Shown here one piece after another: positions 2,801 through 59,200 of a DNA stretch of 64,000 nt. Source of the stretch: Mobula hypostoma (Eukaryota); assembly GCF_963921235.1 (NCBI RefSeq), contig NC_086097.1, positions 11,780,001 through 11,844,000 of the forward strand, given 5' to 3'. Under the pieces are notes generated by a model, which saw only the letters and a program-made list of their open reading frames with translations, ran no database searches and was not told the origin of the DNA. The position numbers and the translations under genes are program-made. The stretch's first letter is position 1, and each line of letters opens with the position of its first letter.

Positions 2801-5800
2801 AACCAGAATGAGAATCAGGTTTATCATCACCAACGTGTGCCGTGAAATTTGTTAACTTAGCAGCAGCAGTTCAATGCAATACATAATCTAGCAGAGAGAA
2901 AAAAATAACAATAATAAACAAAATAAAACATAATGATAAATAAATTAGAAAAAATTTTGTATATTGAATAGATTTTTTTAAATGTGCAAAAACAGAGATA
3001 CTGTATAATTTTTAAAAAGTGAGGGAGTGTCCAAAGATTCAATGTCCATTTAGGAATTGGATGGCAGAGGGGAAGAAGCTGTTCCTGAATCGCTGAGTGT
3101 GTGCCTTCAGGCTTCTGTATCTCCAGCCTGATGGTAATAGTGAGAAAAGGACATGCCCTGGGTGCTGGGGGTCCTTAATAACGGACGCTACCTTTCTGAG
3201 GCTCCGCTCCCTAAAGATGTCCTGGGTACTTGTAGGCTAGTACCCAAGATGGAGCTGACTAGACTTTGAGCGTACTTGTTGACATGCCAGATCTCTTCAA
3301 ACTCCTAATAAAGTATAGCCGCTGTCTTGCCTTCTTTATAACTACTTCGATATGTTGGGACCAGGTTAGATCCTCAGAGATCGTGACACCCAGGAACTTG
3401 AAACTGCTCACTCTCTCCACTTCTGATCCCTTTATGATGATTGGTATGTGTTCCTTCATCTTACCCTTCCTGAAGTCCACAATCACCTCTTTTGTCTTAC
3501 TGATGTTGAGTGCCAGGTTGTTGCTGCGACACCACTCCACTAGTTGGCATATCTCACTCCTGTACGCCCTCTCGTCACCACCTGAGATACGATCAACTAT
3601 GGTTGTATCATCAGCAAATTTATAGACGGTATTTGAACTGTGCCTAGCCACACAGTCACGTGTATATAGAGTAGAGCAGCGGGCTAAGCACACACCCCTG
3701 AAGTGCACCAGTGTTGAGCGTCAGCGAGGAGGATATGTTATCACCAATCTGCACAGACTGTGGTCTTCCAGTTAGGAAACCAAGGATCCAATTGCAGGGG
3801 GAGGCTCAGAGGCCCAGGTTCTGCAGCTTCTCAATCAGGATTGTGGGAATAATGGTATTAAATGCTGAGCTACAGTCAATGAACAGCATCCTGACGTAGG
3901 TGTTTGCGTTGTCCAGGTGGTCTAAAGCCATGTGGAGAGCCATTGAGATTGTGTCTGCCATTGACCTATTGTGGCGATAGGCAAATTGCAATGGGTCCCG
4001 GTCCTTGCTGAAGCAGGAGTTCAGTCTAGTCATGACCAACCTCTCAATTCGTCTCTATAGAGCCGTCTCTATCTGTCTACAAGAAGGGTCAGAGCAGTCT
4101 ATATTTCCTGAGGAGACTGAGGTCCTTTAACATCTGTCAGACGATGCTGAAGATGTTCTACGAGTCTGTGGTGGTCAGTGCGATCATGTTTGCTGTTGTG
4201 TGCTGGGGCAGCAGGCTGAGGGTAGCAGACACCAACAGAATCAACAAACTCATTCGTAAGGCCAGTGATGTTGTGGGGATGGAACTGGACTCTCTGACGG
4301 TGGTGTCTGAAAAGAGGATGCTGTCCAAGTTGCATGCCATCTTGGACAATGTCTCCCATCCACTACATAATGTACTGGGTGGGCACAGGAGTACATTCAG
4401 CCAGAGACTCGTTCCACCGAGATGCAACCCAAAGTGTCATAGGAAGTCATTCCTGCCTGTGGCCATCAAACTTTACAACTTCTCCCTTGGAGGGTCAGAC
4501 ACCCTGAGCCAATAGGCTGGTCCTGGAGTTATTTCCTGGCATAATTTACATATTACTGTTTAATTATTTATGTTTTATTACTATTTAATTATTTATGGTG
4601 CAACTGTAACGAAAACCAAATTCCCCCGGGATCAATAAAGTATGACTATGACTTTGACTATGACTATGACTATGAAAGCATTTCATCACCGTCCATGTAA
4701 GTGCTACCAGGTGATAGCCATTAAGGCAGCCCACATTACTCTTCTTAGGAACTGGTATAATTGTTGCCTTTTTGAAGCAGGTGGGAACTTCTGCCTGTAG
4801 CAGTGAGAGGTTGAAAATGTCCTGGAATATTCCTGCTAGTTGATTGGCACAGGTTTTCAGAGCCTTACCAGGTACTCCATCGGGACCTTCGGCCTTGTGA
4901 AGGTTCACTCTCTTTAAAGACAGCCTAACATCGGCCTCTGAGACAGAGATCACAGGATCATCAGGTGCAGCAGGGATCTTCACAGCTGTAGTTGTGTTCT
5001 CCCTTTCAAAGCGGACATAGAGGCATTGAGTTCATCTGGTAGTAAAGCAACGCTGCCATTCATGCTGTTGGGTTTCGCTTTGTAGGAAGTAATGTCTTGC
5101 AGACCCTTGTCAGAGTTGCCGTGCATTTGATATCGCCTCCAACCTCATTCGAAATTGTCTCTTCACCCTTGAAATAGCCCTTCGCAAATCACACCTGGTT
5201 TTCTGGTACAGGTCTGTGTTGCCAGACTTGAATACCACAGATCTAGCCTTCAGCAGACAATGTACCTCCTGGTTCATCCATGGGTTTTGGTTTGGGAATG
5301 TACAATAAGTCTTTGTAGGCACACACTCATCTACACAGGTTTTAATGAAGTCGGTAACAACTGCAGCATACTCATCCAGATTCAAAGATGAATCCTTGAA
5401 TACAGTCCAGTCCATCAACTCAAAGCAGTCCTGTAGGCACTCCTATACTTCCCTTGTCCATTCTTTTTTCTTGGTCCTCACTGCTTGCTCCGCAGTCTTC
5501 AGTCACTGCCTATACTCAGGAATTAGAAGTACAGCTAGGTGATCAGACTTCCCGAATTGAGGGTGTGGAATAGCACGGTAGGCATTCTTGATGGTGGTGT
5601 AGCAATGGTCCAGTGTGTTGTTTCCTCTGGTATTGCAAGTGATCTATTGATGGTAGTTGCTTAGTGGTTTTTTTCACACTGGCCTTGTTAAAATCTCCCA
5701 AAATGATGATGAAGGTGTTAGGGTGTGCTGTTTCCTGCATGTTGATCCCATTACTCAGATCATCTAAAGCCTGCTTGGCATTGGCCTGAGGTGGAATGTA

Positions 5801-6078
5801 GATTGCCACCAACATGACCCCAGAGAACTCCCGTGGCAGGTGAAAAGGATGACACTTTACTGCTAGATATTCCAGGTCTGGTGAGCAGAATTGGGACAGC
5901 ACTGATATATTTGTGCACCAAGAAGAGTTGATCATGAGGCATACTCCTCCACCTCTGCTCTTGTGAGACTCTATCGATCTATCCTGATAGTGTATAGTAA
6001 ACCCGTCGATCTGAATCACTGTATCCGGTACGGATGGGGTTAACAACGATTCCGTGAAACAAAGGACACATGTGGTCC
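2801..6078 (-). mobile_element. Long Rex1/Babar-like LINE (APE endonuclease + RT), frameshifted, flanked by TACCAG TSD
   Basis: ORF 5543-6046 has APE motifs (RGGGVC, YIPP, ILGDFN). ORFs 4585-4983, 3806-4039 ([18 protein letters not shown]) and 3259-3708 (YKFADDTT, FKFLGV) are RT. GATTCT-type tail at ~2801-2820; taccag at 2795-2800 and 6079-6084. Confidence 0.9.
4048..4675 (+). mobile_element. 5'-truncated Rex1-like LINE of another subfamily with (TATGAC)n tail, inserted antisense into the previous element
   Basis: ORF 4144-4515 (MFYESVVVSAIMFAVVCWGS..SHPLH..KSFLPVAIKLYN), then AATAAA and a tatgac repeat at ~4641-4675. The host RT sequence ctctca|aagcatttcatc rejoins across the insert. Confidence 0.88.
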
Positions 6079-6321
6079 TACCAGCTGATGATGCAGCTTG
6101 TCAGGGCACTCTCAATACTGCTCCTGTAAAATTCAGTGAAGATGGGTGTAGGAGGAGAGCTCACTTGCTTCAATTTCCTCAGGAAGGGGTGACACTGCTC
6201 TATCTTCTTATTCAGGTAAGTGATTTTGAGGGACCAGGTGAGGTCATTCACGATGTGAACTCCCAGGAACTTGGTGCACATAATTCTCTTTATGGAGGAG
6301 CCATGTATGTGCAGAGGGGGA

Positions 6322-6478
6322 TGGTTCACGAAAATGATTCCAGTATTGAATAGCATGTCATATGAAGAGCGTTTGATGGCTTTGGGCCTGTATTCACTAG
6401 TATCAGCCATGGTGAAATGGTGGAGCAGGCTCATTGGGCCAAATTGCCTAATTCTGCTTCTATATCTTGTGATCTTCT
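6322..6478 (+). mobile_element. Internally deleted CR1 3' fragment
   Basis: FTKMIP..MSYEERLMALGLYSL joined directly to the CR1 3' UTR (ggccaaattgcctaattctgcttctatatctt). Confidence 0.75.
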
Positions 6479-6699
6479 TCTCGTTCAGACTTAGGTTGTT
6501 GTTCTCACACTGGTCCACCAGCCGCTCCACTTCCTCTCTGTGCTCCGACTCATCATGGCTGTTGATGCGGTCAGCCGCTGTGGTGTCATCCGCAAACTTG
6601 ACGACACGGTTCGAGCTGAATGCTGTGTCACAGTCAATGCGTCAGCATATGAACAGTGGTGGGCTGAACACACAGCCCTAGGGAGTTCCAGTACTCCCC

Positions 6700-6950
6700 A
6701 GAAGAAGGTTTTGAGCTGGCACCGAAACATGTCAACTAAGTTTTAGTTTTAGGTATTGAATTCCACAGTTCAGGAGTGTAGTTCAAAAAAGATGACCTGC
6801 CAATTACCTTCGGAGTGAGATTGTTCGAATTTAAGAGACTGGTGGGAGAAGACTTGAGAGCAGGATTATTAAACAAAAGTGATTCTGTGATGTATTCCTG
6901 TTCTAGACGATTGAGAGTTTTTAAAACAAGTAAGAGAACTTCACAAAGAA
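6700..6950 (-). mobile_element. L2-like LINE C-terminal fragment
   Basis: ORF 6736-7002 reads VLKTLNRLEQEYITESL..LKSS..LL..GRSSFLNYTPELWNSIP, followed by FRCQLKTFF. This matches the L2 ORF2 end pattern (AP.LWNSLP..FK..LKT.LF). Confidence 0.7.
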
Positions 6951-7545
6951 GAAAGAAATGCAGAAATGTGAACTGAATGCAGGCAATGAAACAATTCAAC
7001 AAACATGGATGTTCAATTACTTAGGGAACATGATAGCATCCGACTGTAGGGCTGATGTTGAAATTAGCAGGTTTAGGATTGCTAAATGGACGTTCGAATG
7101 TCTAAGCAAGTTACTAAAGAATAACATAATTTCTATGGATACAAATCTAAGAATGCTGCGGTGCTATATTCATTCCACACTACCATATGGAAGCGAATGT
7201 TGGACAATATCAAAGCAATATGAGGAAAGACTCGATGCTGCAGAAATTTGATGAAAATATTGTGGAAGGACAGAGTAACAAATGGGGACGTCAGGAAACA
7301 TCAGCTGGAGTTTCTGGGGTGTGTACTGAGAAAAGAAAAGCTCAAACATCTTACAATGACAGGAAAATTTGATGGACGAAAAGTTCACAGTCGATGGTGC
7401 ATAACATTTAGAACTTACATCAAGGGATGGGCAAACAAATGTTCTGAAGTGCTTACTAGAACTTCTCAGATTAAAGACAGATGAAAGACCATGATCACCC
7501 ATGTCAGACAACATGGCACATTATGATGATGATGATAATGATGAA
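6950..7545 (+). mobile_element. RTE-clade LINE 3' fragment with (ATG)n tail
   Basis: ORF 6958-7251 (FNYLG, RIAK..F, LRCYIHSTLPYGSECWTI) and ORF 7248-7484 (QLEFLGCVLRKEKL.HL..TGK.DG); tail atgatgatgataatgatg at ~7523-7543. Confidence 0.85.
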
Positions 7546-7734
7546 GAGGACTTTAAAATCGATTGTAAAAGATTCAGGAAGCCAATGCAGTGTAGTTAGG
7601 ATGGGAACGATACGCTCCTTTATTCTCGTTTTGGTTAAAACTCTAATGTACAAGATACCGTAATATACAAATTACTGACTATAAGATATAGGAACGGAAT
7701 TAGGCCATTTGGCCCATCGAGTCTGCTCCATACT

Positions 7735-8330
7735 GTGTTGCTATTAAGTACTAATAGCCACAAATACCAAGATGAGTATCTCAGAGTTTTTGAAGAAGGC
7801 TTCAGGTGGCTGAACAAACACAACATAAAGCTAATAAGAAACAAGTGTGTATTCCTACCAAAGGAAATTGTCTACCTCGGACTAAAAGCAGGTGTGCAAG
7901 GACCAATAAAAGAAAAAGTGGAATAAGTTGCAAAATCATGGAAACTGAACTCAGGTTGAACTCAGGTCATTCCTGGACACAGCGTGCTAAGATTTTTTAT
8001 TGACATTTGCAGCATTTTGTACCTCATTACATCAGTTACTGACAAACACGGATCTGGGATAAAGATGGTAAAAAACATCTGAATAATGTCACAGGAATCC
8101 TGGAAGTTTTTGTACATTAATGGTGAATAAAGTAACTTACAGAAATTTGTAATACCTCACATTATGCATTAGGAACTGTCATGTGATGTATTGTAGTTAA
8201 GAAAATCTAATTCGGTTTATTTTATGCACATTGAAGAAGGCTAATTCTACTCAAATCAAGAAAGAAATTTAGAATTTACCCATGGAGTGCAAATAATACA
8301 TACACTTTTCTACAAATATATATGGTTGGT
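7735..8330 (+). mobile_element. Highly decayed Gypsy-like pol fragment (end of RT into RNase H)
   Basis: ORF 7735-7926 (L..HNIKLIRNKCVFLPKEIVYLG..PIKEKVE), then ICNTSHYALGTVM resembling the CDAS.YG.GAV RNase H motif. Confidence 0.6.
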
Positions 8331-8356
8331 AAGACCATATTTGTGGAACAATCATG

Positions 8357-8548
8357 AACAAGAGAAAATCTGCAGATGCTGGAAAGCCAAGCCACACACA
8401 CAAAATCCTGGAGGAACTCAGCAGGCCAGGTAGTGTCTACGGAAATGAGTAAATAGTTGACATCTCAGCCTGAAACGTCGACTGTTCGCACTTTTCCATA
8501 GATGCTGCCTGGCCTGGTAACTGCCTCCAACATTTTGTGTGTGTTGCC
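8357..8548. mobile_element. Short fold-back insertion made of two opposed Penelope terminal-repeat tips (ribozyme core mostly deleted)
   Basis: cacacacaaaatcctggaggaactcagcaggccagg is mirrored by cctggcctggtaactgcctccaacattttgtgtgtg; the centre keeps cctgaaacgtcgactg. Confidence 0.8.
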
Positions 8549-8859
8549 CATATTTGTAGAATTCTGTTTTCCTTAGCTAAGGAAGGGACATACTTGCCAT
8601 CAAAGTAGTGCAGCAAAAATGCAGCAGAACTGTTCCTGGGATGATATGTTCCTCATTTGAGAAAGAGTAGATTAGTCTTTGATTCTCTAAATTCAGAAGA
8701 ATGAGAGATGGACTCATTGAAACATAAATTTCTCAAAGTATCAACAGAGTAGTTATAGGGAAGGCTCTTCCCTTGGCCTCCATAGAAATAGGAGTCCACA
8801 GTTTCAAAATAAAGAATAGGTTGTTTAAGGGGTAACATAAGGATAAATTTGAGGTAGAA

Positions 8860-9143
8860 GACCAAATTCAGGAACAATTGTTTCCCTTCAACTATCATGC
8901 TCTTGAATCTGAAGGGATATCTTCACCCACCCAAACACTGAACTGTTCCTGAAACCCATGGACTCTCTTTCAAGGACTTTTCATCTCATGTTGTCCATAT
9001 TTATTGCTTATTTATTTGTTATTACTATATTGTTTTTTTTTAATTTCTTTGTGCTTGCTGTGAATGCCCACAAGAAAATGATGCTCAGGGTTATATATGG
9101 TGACATATATGTACTTTGATAATAAATTTACTTTGAACTTTGA
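8860..9143 (+). repeat. Rex-type LINE 3' UTR family with (TTTGAAC)n tail; further copies at ~10430-10635, 21215-21430, 23420-23920, 24730-24820, 35495-35870, 36950-37885, 52680-52895, 56790-58010, 60750-61775
   Basis: Shared signature caagaaaatgaatctcagggttgtatatggtgacatatatgtactttgataataaatttactttgaac, preceded in long copies by the coding end RRYRSLR.HTTRFRNS..P.TI.LLN. Confidence 0.8.
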
Positions 9144-22197: not shown

Positions 22198-22965
22198 GTA
22201 TACCAACATATTGAAATTATGCATACCACATCAGACCTATCACACCATGCATACTACACCAGGGCGATGATAGCATGCATCTAACTCACTAGTACATTGG
22301 TACCATACATATCACACCAAAACCTTGAAATCATGCACACCAGACCAGAATGATGATCTAATGATTACCAAAGTTCATTTATAGTCAAAGTATGCATACA
22401 TTATACAACCTTGAGATTCGTCTCCTTACAGGTAGCTACAAAAACAAAGAAACCCAATAAAAGAGACCCCATAAAAAAAGAAGACTGCCGGACACCCAAT
22501 ACGCAGAGGGAAGTAAACAAATAGCATTCAGTATGAAAGTGACTCCACAGACATCAAGCTGGGAGCAGGCCACAGCCTCACCCTCAGCCCAGTGCAGAGT
22601 CGAATAGGTGTCATGGAGCGGTGAACAGAACCAGCCTGCCATTTCAATCCATCTGGCCTGGTATTTAAATCATCCAAGCATTGTGTTGTTCCTTGTACAA
22701 GGACTTGGTCCGTCACATCAATATGCTCTGGGCCTGGACCCCACTGCCACATTTCAGCCTGTACTCAGCCTTTCCAAACTGGCCTGGCGCTGAGATCAAT
22801 GAAACCTCACCTTGGAGGAAACCTCACCTCACCTGTGTGAGTCCTCATCATACCAGCATGATGATAATAACAACAGGAATTCTGCAGATGCTGGAAATTC
22901 AAGCAACACACATCAAAGTTGCTGGTAAACGCAGCAGGCCAGGCAGCATCTATTGGAAGAGTTTC

Positions 22966-23001
22966 AGTCGACGTTTCAGGCCGAGACCCTTCGTCAGGAC
23001 T
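22966..23001 (-). ncRNA. Minimal type I hammerhead ribozyme motif
   Basis: Minus strand reads AGUC-CUGACGA-AGG(GUCUCGG)CCU-GAAAC-GUC-GACU: core boxes intact, stem I AGUC/GACU, stem III reduced to the palindrome ACGU. Confidence 0.75.
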
Positions 23002-23108
23002 AACTGAAGGAAGAGTTAGTAAGAGAATTGAAAGTGAGAGGGGGAGGGGGAGATCCAAAAAATCTCCCCCTCTCACTTTCAAATCTCTTACTAACTCTTC
23101 CTTCAGTT

Positions 23109-23144
23109 AGTCCTGACGAAGGGTCTCAGCCTGAAACGTTGACT
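23109..23144 (+). ncRNA. Minimal type I hammerhead ribozyme motif
   Basis: AGUC-CUGACGA-AGG(GUCUCAG)CCU-GAAAC-GUU-GACU; cleavage triplet GUU. Confidence 0.7.
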
Positions 23145-24826
23145 GTACCTCTTCTTATAGATGCTGCCTGGCCTGCTGCGTTTACCAGCAACTTTGATGA
23201 TGATATAATGCATGTTATATCAGTGTGATGATATGACACATGCTACTTCAGTGTAATGGTACCATGTCTGTGGCAACAGGGAGTCAAATACACTAGCTTA
23301 ATGAGAAGATGAAAGTAAAAATAACTAAAGGTAATCATTCAACTGTTTCATTCAATGGAATATTAATACACTTGTAAAAACGTACAGAGGAACGTACAGT
23401 ATGTAAATCACATCGACCTAGAGTATTGTTGCAGGAAAGCAGCATCCATCATCAGGAACCTCCTCCACTCAGATCATGCTCTCTTCTTGCGGCTGCCGTC
23501 AGGAAGAAGGTACAGGAGCCTCAGGACTCATACCACCAGGTTCAGGAACAGTAATTATCCCTCAACTATTAAGCTCTTGAACCAAAGGGGAAAATTTCAC
23601 TCAGATTCACTTGCCCCATAATTGAAATGTTCCCACAACTGATAGACCCACTTTCAAGGACTCTTCATGTCATGTTCATGATATTTATGGCTTATTTATT
23701 TATTACTATTATTATTATTATTATTATTATTTCTTCTTTCTTCTTGTGTTTACACAATTTGTTGTCTTTTGCACACTGGTTGTATGCCCAGTTTGTGCAT
23801 AGTTTCACTGATTCTATTATGGTTATTGGATTTAGTGAGTATGCCCGCAAAAAAATGAACCTCCCGGTTGTATATGGTGACATATATATACTTTGATAAT
23901 AAATTTACTTTGAACCTTTAAAGATAATTTTCAAAATCGAAGGCATTATATTTTGGATATGCAATGCTAATTTTATGTTCTTTTCGATGCATGAATATGT
24001 GATGCCTTCTTGAATCATAATAATTTAGAATAATGTAGTTTTAATATTGCCTGGAGAAATGTTAGAATTAGATAATAGCACTGAATGCAGCATAGGTAAT
24101 ATTACCCTAGACTGCGATGAAAACAGTACTAAGATCATTATTAAAGCAATATATTGGACAGTACAGTGCTGGGCAGGTCAGGACCTATGAAACCCAGAGG
24201 AAGCCATTAATCATGGAGTTTACTATGGCACTGAGCTCTTGGAATCTATAGCTGTAGAATAACTGCACTGTAATCACTAACTTTTGACACTTATGTACGC
24301 AAAGGAGCATTAGAGTGCAAATGTGAAGGAGTGGAATTGTCTGTAATACGATTACTGATATTAAGTAATTTCAGTCATGGCCCAGTGCCCTCTTTAACAT
24401 AGTGTTTTGGACAGTATAATAACATAAAGTAAAAAAAAATGCAGGACTTTGTTGTAGATAGTAGAATTCTTTTTTCAGTGATGTGTGTCAAGGCAGGGGA
24501 AAGAATTCTCTTCTTCCATATTAAATAACCAAGTGGCAACTTCAAACATTTCCCCTTTTAGAAATAAGACTAATCAGCAACTGAGGCTTGGTAGGGTGTG
24601 TTGAGAGAGGAGGCCGAAGTGGGAGGGTGAGGGGAAGTAGGGGTTGCAGGTGGTGGGTGGGGCCAATTGAGGGGAAGGTGGGAGAGTGGAGGAGCAGTGA
24701 TGGGGAAGGAAACTGGGAGGGGGTGTATGCAAAGTACAAAGTAAATTTATTATCAAAGTAATATATATCACCATATACAACCCTGAGATTCATTTTCTTG
24801 TGGACATTCACAGTAAGTACAAGAAC

Positions 24827-52662: not shown

Positions 52663-55600
52663 TTTCAGGAAATCTGCAGCTCATGTTCTGTGCATTATTT
52701 CTTTACTTTTTTATTCTATTTGCATGATTTGTCCTCCTTTGCACGTTGGGTATTTGCTGATCTTGTTGTGTGTGTGTGTTTTTTTTTGGTGAATTCACTT
52801 CTGTTTCCTGGTTTTGTGGCTGCCTGCAGGAAGGTGAATCTCAGGGCTGTATATGGTGTGCATAATTTGATAATATCTTGAACTTTGAACTTTGAATGGT
52901 GTCCTGGAGAGACTGAGTCTTCGTATGCCAAAGATGAGCCAGAGAAAAAGCGGTGGCAGGAGGTCCTCAGTATATGTGGGGTAATCTACCCAACATGGAA
53001 TGTCGGCAGGTGAAGAGAAGGGGAGTCCTCTTGTCACAGGGTCCTTTACTAATAAAAGAGGATAATTGTTAATTTATATGATATTTCTACAAAGCATTAG
53101 TTTCTGGGTGTCACTCTTCAGAAAGGATTTCCAGGCCATCCAGAGCAAGCAAAGTGGGGAAAGAGGTGAATTCTTACAATTGAGAAGGTAAAGGAGAGGT
53201 TTATGTTCTCAAAACTACAAAATTGAGGAGGATTTTAAAAGGATGAACAATGAATAATTTTCTTTCTACTGGCAGGGGCTCAATATAGTAAGTACTTCAT
53301 CCGTTTGGCAGAAATAAGAGAGATAAGAAAAATTGCTTTTTACACGGTATGTTGTTCTGGTCTTAGGTACATTGTTGGGATCGGTGGCAGAATGAGACTC
53401 CGTTTAATGGTGAAATAGATATTTTCCTGAAAATGGAACATTTATTGTGGTAAAAGGGATAAATGAGGGAGAGAGAGCAATTTAAAGTAACTTTATTTGC
53501 TGGCTGAGTGGGGCCATAGGAACAACTCCTGACTCAGTATCAGCAAGACCAAAGAGCAGATTCTTGCCTTCAGGAGAAGGAAACCTGAGGTCCATGAGCC
53601 ACTCTTCATCGGAGGATCAGAGGTGCAACTTGAACTTCCTTGGTGTTATTATTTTTGAAGACCTATCCTGGACCCAACACCTAAGTGCCCAATCTGCAGA
53701 TGCTGGAAATTCCTTTCCCCCACCACTACTCTGCAAGCAAGTCTCTCTCAGGTCCCACTGCCAGCTCTTGGGTCCTCAGAGACTCAATCTTCCTTTCACT
53801 CCACCATCCCTGAACACCCCAAACCCTCAGACACTGTTAACCCACTTTCCCCCTTTGATCCCAGCTGTCATCCATGCTGGGGCTTCACCATCCCCTCCAA
53901 CCTGCCCCTCTCTGAGGCAGAATGTTCTGTCCTCAGGAAGAGCCTCACCTTTGTCCCCCTGCGCCCACACTTCAGTGAGTTCCATGCCCGCCACGAGGCT
54001 GAGCTCTTCTTCTGCCGCCTCCTTTTCCGAGTCTATTTCTTTAGCAAGGACTCTCCACCCCGCACCGAAGACCCCTTCTCCCGTCTTCAACCCTCCTCCT
54101 CTTCCTGGACACCTCACCTTGGTCCTCTGCCTGCTCTGGACATTTTCATTGCCAATTGCTGATGGGACATCAACCACCTGGACTTCACCACTCCTATCTC
54201 CAATTCCAACCTCACTTCTTCCGAACACTCTGGTCTCCACACATTCTGCGCTAATCCTAACCTCATCATCAAACTTGCAGGTAAGGAGGTGCTGCAGTAG
54301 TCTGGTAAACTGACTACTGACTTACTGAGGCCCAACGCCAACTCTCAGCCACCTCCTTTTACTTGCCCTTTGAACAGGACCTCCAGTAAGGAGACCATTG
54401 TCTCCCACACCATCACTGACCTTATTAGCTCTGGGGATCTCCCATCCACTGCCACCATCTTCATAGCTCCTGCACCCCACACCTCCCATTTCTACTTCTT
54501 ACCCAAGATCCACAAACCTGCTTCTCCAGGTAGACCGATTGTTTCAGCTTGATCCTGCCCCACTGAACTGATATCTGCATACCTTGACTCTGTTTTATCC
54601 CCGCTAGTTAGTCCCTTCCTACCTACATCCGTGACACTTCACACACTCTGGATGATTTCAGGTTCCCTAGCCCTCATCATCTTATTTTTACTATTGATGT
54701 CCAGTCCCTAATACACCTCCATCCCCAACTAGGAATGCCTCAAAGCTTTCTGTCTCTCTCTGGACATCTGACCCAACCAGTTTCCCTCCACCACCACTCT
54801 CCTCTGCCTAGCGAACTTGTCATCACACCTAATCATTTCTCTTTTGGCTCCTCCCACTTCCTTCAAAGAAAAGGGATTGTCATGGGCACTTGCATGGGTC
54901 CCAACTATGCCTGCCTGTTTATCAGCTATGCGGAACAGTCTATGCTCCCGCACTTTTCCTACACTACATCAACGACTGCATTGCTGCTGCTTCCTGCACC
55001 TGTGCTGAACTCGTCGACTTCATCCACTTTGCCTCCAAATTCCACCCTGCCCTCAAATTTACCTGTCCATTTCCGACACCTCCCTCTCCTTTCTCGATCT
55101 CTCTGTCTTTATCTCTGGAGACAACTTATCTATTGATGTCTATTACAAAACCATGGACTCTCAGAGCTACCTGGACTGTACCTCGTCCCACCTTGTTACT
55201 TGAAAAAAACGCCATCCCCTTCTCTCAATTCCTCCTTCTTCACCACATCTGCTCTCAGGATGAGGGTTTTTCATTCCAGAATGAAGGAGATGTCCTCCTT
55301 CTTCAAAGGAAGGGGCTTCCCTTCCTCTGCCATCAACACTGCCCTCAACTGCATCTCTTCCATTTCGCACATGTCTGCTCTTACCCCATACTCCCGCCAC
55401 CCTACCAGGGTTCCTCTTGTCCTCACCTACCACTTTACCAGCCTCTGCATCCAGCTCGTAATTCTCCGAAACCTCTGCCACCTCCAACTGGATCCCACCA
55501 CCAAACACATCTTTCCCTCCCCCCCCCACTTTCTGCTTTCCACAGTGATCACTCCCTATGCGACTCCCTTGTCCACTCGTCCCTCCCCACTGATCTCCCT

Positions 55601-55893
55601 CCTCACACTTATCCTTGCAAGCAGAACAAGTGTTACACCTGCCCCTACACCTCCTCCCTCACTACCATTCAGGACCTCAAACAGTCCTTCCAGGTGAGGC
55701 GACACTTTTCCTGTGAGTCTGTTGGGGTCATATACTGTGTCCAGTGCTCCCGGTATGGCCTCCTGTACATCAGCGAGAGCTGATGTAGATTGGGAGACCG
55801 CCTTGCTGAGCACCTACGCTCTGTCTGCCAGAAAAAGTGGGTTCTCCCAGTGGCCACCCATTTTAATTCCACTTCCCATTCCCATTCAGATAT

Positions 55894-56250
55894 CACACAC
55901 AAAAAATGCTGGTGAACGTAACAAGCCAGACTGCACCTATAGGAAGAGGTACAGTCGACGTTTCATGATCCTTTCTCTTCTCCAGCCTTGTATCCCTTTT
56001 GCCAATCAACTTTCCAGCTCTTGGCTCCCTCCCTCCGCCTCCCGTCTTCTCCTATCATTTCAGATCTCCTCCTCCCCCTCCCACTTTCAAATCTCTTACT
56101 ATCTCTTCTTTCAGTTAGTCCTGATGAAGGGTCTTGGCCCGAAACGTCGACTGTACCTATTCCTAGAGATGCTGCCTGGCCTGCTGCATTCACCAGCATT
56201 TTTGTGTGCGTTGCTTGAATTTCCAGCATCTGCAGAATTCCTCGTGTTTG
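55894..56250 (+). mobile_element. Younger Penelope terminal-repeat insertion with inverted 5' piece and 13-bp TSD
   Basis: CCCATTCAGATAT at 55881-55893 and 56251-56263; 55894-55965 is the inverted copy of ~56140-56210. Confidence 0.92.
56117..56152 (+). ncRNA. Minimal type I hammerhead ribozyme motif (best-preserved copy)
   Basis: AGUC-CUGAUGA-A-GGG(UCUUGG)CCC-GAAAC-GUC-GACU. Confidence 0.78.
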
Positions 56251-59200
56251 CCCATTCAGATATGTCTACACATAGCATGCTCCACTATCGTGATAAAGCT
56301 ACACTTTGGCTGGACGAACATCACCTTATATTCAGTCTGAGTAGCCTCCAATGTGATGGCATGAACATCAATTCCTCAAATTTCTGATAATGCCCCACCT
56401 CCCCTTCACCATTCTCCATCCCCTTTTCCCTCTCTCACCTTATCTCCTTGGCCACCTATCGCCTCCCTCTGGTGCTCCTCCTCCCCCCCCCCCCGCTTTT
56501 CTTTCATCCAAGGCCTTCTGTCCTCTTCTATCAGACTCCCACTTCTCCAGCCCTGTATCTCTTTCAGCAATCACTTTTCCAACTCTTTACTTCATCCCTC
56601 CCCCTTCAGATTTCACCTGTCACCTTGTGTTTCTCTCTCCCTTCCCCCTACCTTTTAAATCTACTTCTCAGCTTTTTTTTTCCAGTCCTGCCGAAGGGTC
56701 TCGGGCTGAAACACCGACTGAACTTTCTTCCATCGATGCTGCCTGGCCTGCTGAGTTCCTCCAGCATTTTGTGCGTGTTGCATGGCAATGCCTCTACTCC
56801 CTTGGGAGTTTGTGAAGATTCGCATTATGTCTAAAACTTTGACAAATTTCTTATATTGACTGTCTGCATCACAGACAAGTATGGAAATGCCCTTGAACAG
56901 AAAATCCTACAAAAAGTAGTGGATGTGGCCTAGTCCGTCACGGGTCAAGCCTTCTCCATCATCGAGCACATCTACATGAAACGCTGTTGCAGGAAAGCAG
57001 CATCTATCATCAGGGACCTCACCACCCAGGACATTGTCTCTCCTTGGTGCTGCCATCAGGAGGAAGGTACTGGAGCCTCAGGATCCACACCACAAGGTTC
57101 AAGAACAGTTATTGCCTCTCAAACATCAGGCTCTTGAACCAAAGGTGAATATGGAACGGCAAGCATGAGTTTCAGTGCCGACAGTCTGCCTTTTGATCAC
57201 CACCGAAGGAGGATTCTGTGAGTGGCCTATCACTGTGTGGCTTGTTATGGCAGGTGGGTAGCCCTCCCTGCTTCGTGTGGTGTTCCTCTCTTTCGATGAA
57301 TGTTGGTGATACTGTAGGATGTTCTGCGTTTATGGATTGGACTGTTGGGTTTATGGACAGCCGACATTTTCAGGCTTATGGTTTTTATATTGAATCACCT
57401 ATTTCTTTTCCATTTTGTTGTGCGAGGGGAGAGTGTTTGGGCATTGATGGTCTGTTAGTTTTTTTGTGCAGGGGAGAGTTTGTATCTTGGGGATCAATGT
57501 TCTGATGTTACTGTTCCATTTCGTGCAGGGGGAGGGGATTTGAGGGGTTGATAATCAGGACGCCATTCTTTTTTGTGCAGGAGAGGGTGAGTTTGATGTT
57601 TCTCCATAAATGGGCTATCATGTTCTTTCTTTGTTTCACGGTTATCTGGAGAATAAAAATTTTAGAGTTGTATACGGATACATATTTTGATATTAAATGA
57701 AACTTTGAACTTCACTCGACTACACTTGCCCCATCATTGAAATATTCCCACAACCTATGGCCACATTTTCAAGGACTTCATCTCATGTTCTCAATATTTA
57801 TTGCTTATTTATTTGTTATTATTATTTCTTTCTATTTGTATTTGCACAGTTTGTTGTGTTTTCACACTGGTTGAATGCCCACTTTGGGACAGCCTTTCGT
57901 TGATCCTGTTATGGTTATTATTCTACGGATTTGTTGAGTATGCTTACAAGAAAATGAATTTCAGGAATGCTTGTGGTGACTTTGATGATAAACTTACTTC
58001 AAACTTTGAAAGTACATATGTGTCACAATATATTATCCTGAGATTCATTTTCTTGCGGGCATTCACTGTAAACACAAAGAGATACAACAGGATAAATGGA
58101 AAACTGAATACAGGAAGACAGGAAAACAACAAGTGTGCAAAAGGCAACACTCTGTACAAATAAAAAGTGAAGAGAAAAGAAATAAATATTGAGAACTCAA
58201 GATGAAAAGTCCTTAAAAGTGAGTCAATAGATTGTGTGAGTGAGGATGAGAGGAAGATCCGTACATCCCATCACAATTTTGCTGACATTCGGTAAGAAAG
58301 CCGGCAATAATGTGATGGAACATATGGATCTTCTTCTAGGATCCCACGTTCAGTGTAGAGCTGGATGTCTGGATTGTGTCTTGCACTGAAGAATTTCTGC
58401 AATTATTTAATTCTGTGCCATACGTTTCCTGTAACAATGCTTGAGAGCCGATGGCAATATTTAGCTCTCTGGATGAGATATATGCCTCAGCGACTCAACT
58501 ATGATCTGGTTGGTCTAAGCACCCAAGTCTGGATCTTTTGACTAGTGCATTGGATGCCAGTCTGAATAACAATTTCCTGCTTGAGACTTTTCCAATTGGC
58601 TCAATTATGCAGCCAAATCTTGAGCTTGGTGCTGCTTTCAATATAATAATGGTTAATTGGATACAGACCAAATGGTCGATCTTTATGCCAACAGCGGTTT
58701 TGTTAAGCACTTCAGAATGATCGGGAAAGTCAGTGACTGCTAGATCTAAGTAGGCATTAGCTCCTCTTGGAAGGTGAGCCAGCTGGGAGAGATCATTAAC
58801 TGTGAAGGAGAATACAACATGGCCTTAGTGGTTTAAATGTTGCTTTCTTGCCAGCCCTGGTGGTGCCAATTAAAATGACTGATCAAAAGCATGGTTCATC
58901 GAAAGAGTAGCTGGTCCAATTTTGTGATGGCATTCAACAAAGAGGCAAAAAATTCAGCAGCTGATGCTGGATTAAATAAACGCAGCATGGGGACCCTCCC
59001 TTGGCGAAGTGTTTATGTTCTGAAGGATGTTTTATTCTTTTCCTTTAAGAATTTTTGAGCTACTACCTAAAATGTAAGCAATCTCCATAAGGATCTAAGC
59101 CATGCATAAAAGAAATAGAGGCTTGGAATTGATACCATGACATGGCTGAGTAAAGAGTGATGAGAAACAGGGGAGATGAAATTTGGGTGGGTAACTGGAC

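What the first reader, a model, noticed from the sequence alone, without database searches (positions are those of the whole stretch)
56117..56152. Hammerhead with a zero-nucleotide loop III, predicted to work only as a dimer
Seen: GAAAC is followed directly by GUC, so stem III is just the palindrome ACGU and cannot close within one motif. An extra A lies between CUGAUGA and the GGG/CCC stem II. Known: minimal PLE hammerheads with palindromic stem III cleave as dimers, and an extra A after A9 occurs in a natural viroid hammerhead (CChMVd). Inference: cleavage needs two same-sense copies, tying RNA processing to tandem copies or transcript concentration.
Basis: partly seen in the sequence, partly recalled or inferred. 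Interest (0 to 1): 0.72.

Follow-up and report, generated by a model that had tools for sequence, protein, structure and literature searches.

The report
Known Penelope minimal hammerhead, likely inert
This is a real but already described kind of tiny hammerhead RNA motif from the end repeat of a very abundant Penelope-type jumping gene; this copy is predicted to be zipped shut by a mirror-image piece of itself, and the ends of its sister copies suggest that the element's RNA is likely copied into DNA uncut.

Summary
In detail: 56117-56152 is a type I hammerhead motif with a loop-less palindromic helix III and an extra A after A9. Both features are in the published consensus of minimal hammerheads of Penelope-like elements (PMC4209133). 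It is one of 7,474 near-exact copies in this genome. It lies in a 357-nt fold-back stub with a 13-bp target duplication, nested in the endonuclease region of an older Neptune-type element. Here an upstream antisense arm is predicted to abolish the fold (stem I probability 0.00), and the nearest same-sense copy has a mutated core and palindrome. The natural dimer partner is likely the second terminal repeat of full-length elements (3,511 nt apart in L034). The link to RNA processing is weak: young copies start at the front edge of the motif (819 of 45,466), hardly at the predicted cut (73 of 69,924; control 31 of 49,783), and a core variant (A6C) has at least 2,621 copies. No covariation was found, and cleavage was not tested. 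The scan noted this family and the uncut-template pattern before, in this genome and others. Ordinary; low interest.

The parts
56117..56152 (+). Type I minimal hammerhead motif: stem I 56117-20/56149-52, core 56121-27, extra A 56128, stem II 56129-32/56137-40, GAAA 56141-44, palindrome ACGU 56144-47, predicted cut between 56148 and 56149
   Evidence: fits the consensus of PMC4209133 Fig. S3
55975..56250 (+). Sense arm of the young insert: 5'-truncated end repeat (pLTR) of the Penelope-like element, ending at the outer of the two usual copy ends (+129 from C3); left edge approximate
   Evidence: 56060-56230 is 92-95% identical to the 39 best other copies
55894..55964 (-). Antisense arm of the same insert: begins at GAAAC, runs across the predicted cut site, lacks the CUGAUGA half; 85.5% identical to 56141-56208 over 69 nt; predicted to pair with the motif
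55881..55893 (+). Left copy of a perfect 13-bp target-site duplication
56251..56263 (+). Right copy of the 13-bp target-site duplication
53712..56385 (+). Older, broken host Penelope-like element: reverse transcriptase region and GIY-YIG endonuclease with C-X4-C-X2-C linker, split by the insert; right edge approximate
   Evidence: (78% to younger copies)
56684..56719 (+). Host element's own hammerhead remnant, same sense, 567 nt downstream: core reads CUGCCGA and the palindrome is lost
53698..53717 (-). Inverted 20-nt piece of the element's tail at the left end of the host element
   Evidence: self-comparison, 20 of 20 identical to 56216-56235

Best explanation
The motif is the minimal hammerhead of a very abundant Penelope-like retrotransposon, carried here in a short fold-back stub where it is predicted to be inert. 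Shown: the motif, its place in the end repeat of an RT plus GIY-YIG element, the stub's two arms and target duplication, and full-length copies with two same-sense motifs 3.5 kb apart. Inferred: in a full-length transcript the two end repeats (or two RNAs held by the element's protein) would supply the two halves of helix III; alone, each motif would fold into an inactive rod in which core bases pair with CGUC, so cutting is likely slow and protein-assisted. Inferred from copy ends: the RNA likely begins at the front edge of stem I, reverse transcription likely starts about 65-75 or 100 nt downstream of the cut site, and the templates that gave insertions were uncut. Cutting would therefore most likely take an RNA out of the transposition pool (removing its 5' end or its downstream start sites) rather than make the template.
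For: Exact fit to the published consensus. 7,474 near-exact copies, control 0; 232 end-piece hits in 120 ten-kb regions. L034 has two same-sense motifs 3,511 nt apart in 359-nt direct repeats around a broken ORF. RT and GIY-YIG. Pairing probability of stem I 0.00 and stem II 0.04 in the whole insert, against 0.90-0.97 and 0.88-0.98 without the antisense arm; insert folds at z = -7.0. Rod fold -10.1 against open fold -7.9 kcal/mol. Junction counts 819 of 45,466 at stem I start, 73 of 69,924 at the cut, 31 of 49,783 at a control place. Of 48 young hits none ends before +55; 21 end at +92 to +105 and 20 at +125 to +134. PMC11167929 (main text read): PLE hammerhead cleaved only with protein, mutants did not affect insertion, no RNA reads ended at the cut site.
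Against: No cleavage or expression data for this locus or family. The motif is kept almost letter for letter between young and old groups, CpG sites included, which suggests that it is under selection for something, possibly cleavage. The cut-site junction rate is slightly above the control (odds ratio 1.68, p = 0.017); 25 of the 73 have prefixes that look like one-base deletions, but I did not fetch their flanks. Copying from a re-ligated circular RNA would also give copies that span the cut site. Folding predictions ignore protein and kinetics.
Confidence: 0.72

Rival explanations
1. One reading: dimer cleavage at both end repeats cuts out a unit RNA, which is re-ligated into a circle and serves as the template; copies span the cut site because the circle is copied through its junction.
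For: Proposed in PMC4209133, with low dimer/trimer cleavage in vitro for a Schistosoma motif. Full-length elements have two same-sense motifs. Motif conserved between age groups and across four other organisms' contigs, where all but one of the 11 variant sites inside the motif are CpG-type transitions and another subfamily stops aligning at 56117 and 56154.
Against: A circle has no end, yet 5' ends pile up sharply at the front of stem I. An A6C core variant is in 17 of 99 older sampled copies (two are a duplicate pair) and at least 2,621 genomic copies. Hammerhead mutants did not affect insertion in vitro.
Confidence: 0.15
2. The motif no longer cuts in this family; it is kept because the same bases serve as promoter/initiator, protein-binding or dimerisation element at the RNA's 5' end.
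For: 5' ends map to the motif's front edge. The downstream block +48 to +94 is as conserved as the motif (0.849 against 0.834 in old copies, non-CpG sites). No covariation. G10.1-U11.1 in 25 of 40 young copies and the A6C variant would be expected to weaken cutting (recalled hammerhead biochemistry).
Against: All other catalytic bases, the palindrome and the extra base are the majority letter in both age groups and match a consensus shared by 40 animal species; a related vertebrate PLE motif does cut with protein.
Confidence: 0.11
3. This particular copy is an active, host-used ribozyme that cuts a host transcript in trans-dimer with other copies.
For: The copy keeps every core base and G10.1-C11.1; only 29 of 154 sampled copies are this intact.
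Against: 23 of 40 young copies are equally intact, so no selection on this locus is needed. The antisense arm lies 5' of the motif and is predicted to pair with it. No expression evidence.
Confidence: 0.02

Closest known systems
Minimal hammerheads (min-HHR) in pLTRs of metazoan Penelope-like elements (Cervera and De la Pena 2014, PMC4209133; main text parts 1-2 of 4 and supplement parts 1-2 of 3 read)
   Same: Type I, CUGANGA plus one extra base, G10.1-C11.1, GAAA, palindromic 15.2-16.2 with no loop 3, short helix I, U-rich 5' flank; mostly single or opposite-strand copies from truncated elements. The listed Acropora and Ixodes motifs have the same GAAA-C-G-U-C arrangement.
   Different: No cartilaginous fish is among the species in Table S1 or Fig. 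S3 as read; copy number here is far higher (29,211 loose matches against about 4,000-9,000 in coelacanth and frog, different descriptors); helix II is at the short end (4 bp) and shows no covariation.
Hammerhead of Poseidon from Anolis carolinensis (Frangieh et al. 2024, PMC11167929; main text read)
   Same: Vertebrate PLE pLTR hammerhead; two reverse-transcription start sites that bound a 30-40 bp tail; insertions made from uncut RNA.
   Different: Poseidon clade, ORF starts inside stem II; here the element has the Neptune/Nematis-type linker and the long frame continues well downstream of the motif.
EN+ Penelope-like elements of Neptune type (Craig et al. 2021, PMC8557442; passages read)
   Same: RT plus C-terminal GIY-YIG with CX2-5CxxC linker; partial tandems, inverted 5'-truncated copies, one-sided tail.
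   Different: Clade not tested by a tree; Nematis shares the linker.
Dimer-cleaving small hammerheads of PLEs (Lunse, Weinberg and Breaker, PMC5785218; paper not seen, known only from its title and citation in the review PMC6765202, passages read)
   Same: Short palindromic stem III, cleavage proposed as dimers.
   Different: Could not compare sequences or rates.

Membership tests
Minimal hammerhead of metazoan PLEs (PMC4209133) | Core CUGANGA, GAAA and NUH triplet in type I order | tested here: met
   against the consensus
Minimal hammerhead of metazoan PLEs (PMC4209133) | Extra base between positions 9 and 10.1 | tested here: met
   A at 56128; A in 146 of 154 sampled copies
Minimal hammerhead of metazoan PLEs (PMC4209133) | G10.1-C11.1 closing pair | tested here: met
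   G56129-C56140 in this copy; G-U in 25 of 40 young copies
Minimal hammerhead of metazoan PLEs (PMC4209133) | Palindromic 15.2-16.2, no loop 3 | tested here: met
   ACGU at 56144-47; C-G in 30 of 38 young copies with both letters
Minimal hammerhead of metazoan PLEs (PMC4209133) | Located in the end repeats of a PLE | tested here: met
   L034 has it in both 359-nt direct repeats; a same-strand end piece lies just downstream of the endonuclease match in 19 of 20 loci picked for long frames
Minimal hammerhead of metazoan PLEs (PMC4209133) | Compensatory changes in helices I and II | tested here: inconclusive
   Both-side changes in 12 of 595 stem I cells and 1 of 598 stem II cells; the family is almost invariant apart from CpG decay, so the test has no power
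Minimal hammerhead of metazoan PLEs (PMC4209133) | No cleavage as monomer, low cleavage as dimer | not testable with these tools
   needs in vitro assay
EN+ Penelope-like element, Neptune type | RT followed by C-terminal GIY-YIG | tested here: met
   RVT_1 at E 2e-5 and 3e-6 and GIY-YIG at E 0.0035 on sister copies, all below Pfam cut-offs; 529 homologues, many with both families; window 55502-55780 is 37% identical to P0020, whose GIY-YIG passes the cut-off
EN+ Penelope-like element, Neptune type | CX2-5CxxC linker between RT and EN | tested here: met
   C-X4-C-X2-C in the window frame near 55615-55642; definition from PMC8557442
EN+ Penelope-like element, Neptune type | Direct or inverted pLTRs, 30-40 bp tail | tested here: met
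EN+ Penelope-like element, Neptune type | RT groups with Neptune in a tree | not tested
   no reference set in hand
Non-LTR retrozyme | Head-to-tail tandem units, each with a hammerhead | tested here: not met
   one complete motif in the insert; 7 of 36 close neighbour pairs same-sense; definition from bioRxiv 10.64898/2026.07.22.740005 passages
Canonical type I hammerhead as modelled in Rfam | Match to an Rfam hammerhead model | tested here: not met

The most novel reading that the evidence does not exclude
In this Penelope family the hammerhead is an off-switch placed at the very first bases of the element's RNA: only uncut RNA is copied, lineages with a damaged core still multiplied, and the telomerase-related enzyme, on running off the RNA's 5' end, slips back 11 bases on a 2-base match and re-copies up to about ten bases, a telomerase-like realignment recorded in over a hundred insertions.
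Probability: 0.3. Interest if true: 0.5.

Novelty: new member of a known kind. Interest (0 to 1): 0.17.

Why it matters
The motif itself adds little: its two 'odd' features are the published consensus and this copy is one of tens of thousands. What has value is the family as a natural experiment on an open question, what PLE hammerheads are for. Genome-wide copy ends favour uncut templates that begin at the motif's front edge, in line with the in vitro result for the anole element, and point to simple tests (end mapping, core mutants). The scan has already noted most of this on other copies.

Tried and rejected
Rfam: no hammerhead match. Covariation: none to speak of. Expression and cut ends: no RNA holder listed (24 runs, none on record as RNA); the four runs laid are contigs, which cannot show ends; no place with many ends and none of the joints shown is a return at the cut site, 11 joints not shown; this says nothing on expression or cleavage. 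Retrozyme tandem: rejected. Locus-specific selection: rejected, young copies are commonly intact. Cis partner at 56684-56719: rejected, core and palindrome changed. A single A6C subfamily could not be defined by linked flank changes (only one position at p < 0.01), and I have no matched A6 count. L108 first looked like a full-length element with a 5' repeat, but the stretch between stub and body is another repeat. Literature: search 'Penelope, hammerhead, shark' gave 4 papers, none on shark elements; 'Penelope, reverse transcriptase, template jumping, hammerhead' gave 0; these are narrow searches of an open-access library. The dimer-cleavage paper PMC5785218 was not available, and bioRxiv supplements are closed, so chondrichthyan examples may be in print there. 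Look-up of earlier notes by sequence gave one unrelated note.

Full report
Observation. The 36 bases at 56117-56152 form a type I hammerhead motif: stem I (4 bp), CUGAUGA, one extra A, stem II (predicted 4 bp with a U-G pair), GAAA, then C-G-U-C and the 3' strand of stem I. Helix III is only the palindrome ACGU. A strict descriptor finds 3 sites in the window and a mean of 0.0 in 100 Markov controls. No Rfam hammerhead model matches. Positions below are counted from C3 (56121) = 0; the predicted cut is between +27 and +28.

What it sits in. The motif lies in a 357-nt insert (55894-56250) flanked by a perfect 13-bp duplication. The insert has two arms: an antisense arm (55894-55964) that begins at GAAAC, crosses the predicted cut site and is 85.5% identical to 56141-56208, and a sense arm that ends at +129. 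It splits the endonuclease region of an older, broken element (53712 to about 56385) with reverse transcriptase and GIY-YIG similarity. Sister copies give RVT_1 and GIY-YIG hits below Pfam's cut-offs; a sister frame has 529 homologues among 7,994 scored candidates, the best named ones from a bamboo shark (68%) and a ray (88%), so the host is likely a cartilaginous fish. The C-X4-C-X2-C linker points to the Neptune/Nematis type (PMC8557442 passages); no tree was made.

Abundance. A 34-base near-exact pattern has 7,474 matches (control 0) and a loose core pattern 29,211 (control 31). In 120 ten-kb regions that I took at round coordinates on 31 large contigs there were 232 end-piece hits; 154 cover the whole motif, 50 keep the core, 37 also the palindrome, 29 also both stems. 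That extrapolates roughly to 670,000 pieces and 84,000 intact motifs. 23 of 40 young and 4 of 101 old copies are intact (13 could not be classed). Decay is mostly at the motif's CpG sites.

Comparison with print. Cervera and De la Pena 2014 (PMC4209133; main text parts 1-2 of 4, supplement parts 1-2 of 3) define exactly this motif, list the extra base after position 9, G10.1-C11.1 and the palindrome as consensus, report no monomer and low dimer cleavage for a Schistosoma motif, and note that most copies are single or on opposite strands. They cite De la Pena and Flores 2001 for the extra base (title seen; that the viroid is CChMVd is recalled). Frangieh et al. 2024 (PMC11167929, main text read) found that an anole PLE hammerhead cut only with the element's protein, that core mutants did not affect insertion in vitro, and that no RNA reads ended at the cut site.

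Conservation and covariation. The majority motif differs between young and old groups only at N7 and 11.1. At non-CpG sites in old copies the majority letter has frequency 0.83 in the motif, 0.56 upstream (inflated contrast: truncated copies and a pyrimidine run), 0.73 just downstream and 0.85 in the block +48 to +94; so the motif beats its immediate flanks but is not uniquely conserved. In contigs of four other organisms 10 of 11 variant sites inside the motif are CpG-type transitions, and another subfamily stops aligning at 56117 and 56154. Both-side changes are 12 of 595 cells in stem I and 1 of 598 in stem II: no covariation support. Against strict selection: G10.1-U11.1 in 25 of 40 young copies and A6C in 17 of 99 old copies (two are a duplicate pair; A-to-C at six other A positions 1-5 copies), with 2,621 genomic matches to an A6C pattern (no matched denominator).

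Can this copy work? Predicted not. In the whole insert stem I has pairing probability 0.00 and stem II 0.04; without the antisense arm 0.90-0.97 and 0.88-0.98 (z = -7.0). The arm lies 5' of the motif, so it would be present first during transcription. Even alone the motif prefers a rod in which core bases 56123-26 pair with CGUC (-10.1 against -7.9 kcal/mol; -11.9 for the natural C7 copy L004), hiding three of the four palindrome bases. The nearest same-sense copy, 567 nt downstream, has CUGCCGA and no palindrome. Among 36 neighbour pairs under 300 nt, 26 are divergent, 3 convergent and 7 same-sense. The natural cis partner is in full-length elements: L034 has two same-sense motifs 3,511 nt apart in 359-nt direct repeats, and L034, L054 and L111 share the junction from repeat to body.

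Is the RNA cut before copying? Earlier notes of the scan suggested not; I tested it. Of 48 young hits (88% identity or more, 40 nt or more) none ends before +55; 21 end at +92 to +105 and 20 at +125 to +134, a spacing like the published tail. Of 29 with a 5' edge inside the reference (two are region edges), 13 start at -8 to +5 and none between +16 and +79. Genome-wide, patterns that demand three non-matching bases before a 31-base body gave 819 of 45,466 (1.80%) at the front of stem I, 73 of 69,924 (0.10%) at the cut and 31 of 49,783 (0.06%) at a control place (Fisher tests: p about 1e-241 for front against cut; odds ratio 1.68, p = 0.017 for cut against control). 25 of the 73 have prefixes expected from one-base deletions (hand count; flanks not seen); without them the rate equals the control. 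The simplest reading is an RNA that begins at stem I and is copied uncut. A circle cannot be excluded for copies that span the site, but it does not explain the sharp 5' edge.

Side observation. 34 of the 100 listed front-edge copies carry YGA just upstream (hand count), in unrelated flanks. A pattern for these gave 159 matches; in the 100 listed, 19 continue with CTGA and 14 with CCTGA (hand count), i.e. a graded re-copy of the element's own bases -2 to +7, against under 1 expected by chance. It occurs with both 11.1 variants. Slip-back of the enzyme on the AG shared by -4/-3 and +7/+8 is my inference; a master with a short duplication is the rival.

Verdict. Real, known kind, ordinary copy, predicted inert here. 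The dimer requirement follows from the anatomy and is published; its role in processing is doubtful. Supplements of the bioRxiv preprint and the dimer-cleavage paper could not be seen and may hold chondrichthyan examples.

Noticed in passing
G000 copies listed; L183-L192: Copies that start at the front of stem I often carry a graded duplicate of the element's own first bases just upstream (19 of 100 listed with four or more further matching bases); possibly slip-back of the reverse transcriptase at the RNA's 5' end.
   Followed up: partly
window 56684-56719; old copies: Core variant CUGCNGA (A6C) in 17 of 99 old sampled copies and 2,621 genomic pattern matches, suggesting that a lineage with a changed core multiplied.
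   Followed up: partly
young subfamily, e.g. L058, L034: G10.1-U11.1 is the majority in young copies (25 of 40); the extra A could alternatively pair with U11.1.
   Followed up: partly
window 56123-56126 with 56145-56148: Core bases are complementary to CGUC (perfectly when N7 is C, 36 of 40 young copies), giving a predicted inactive rod that hides the palindrome.
   Followed up: partly
window 56169-56215: A downstream block (+48 to +94) is as conserved as the hammerhead across age groups and ends at the first cluster of copy ends; possibly the protein-binding or start signal.
   Followed up: no
window 22869-23055 (-) and 23064-23196 (+): Head-to-head pair of young end pieces, each with a nearly intact motif, arms 95% complementary.
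   Followed up: no
window, whole: 20 end-piece hits of this family in 64 kb, plus several other unrelated interspersed repeat families that were not identified.
   Followed up: no
L104:6333-9353 (+): A 1,007-codon stop-free frame next to a Penelope copy, not identified.
   Followed up: no
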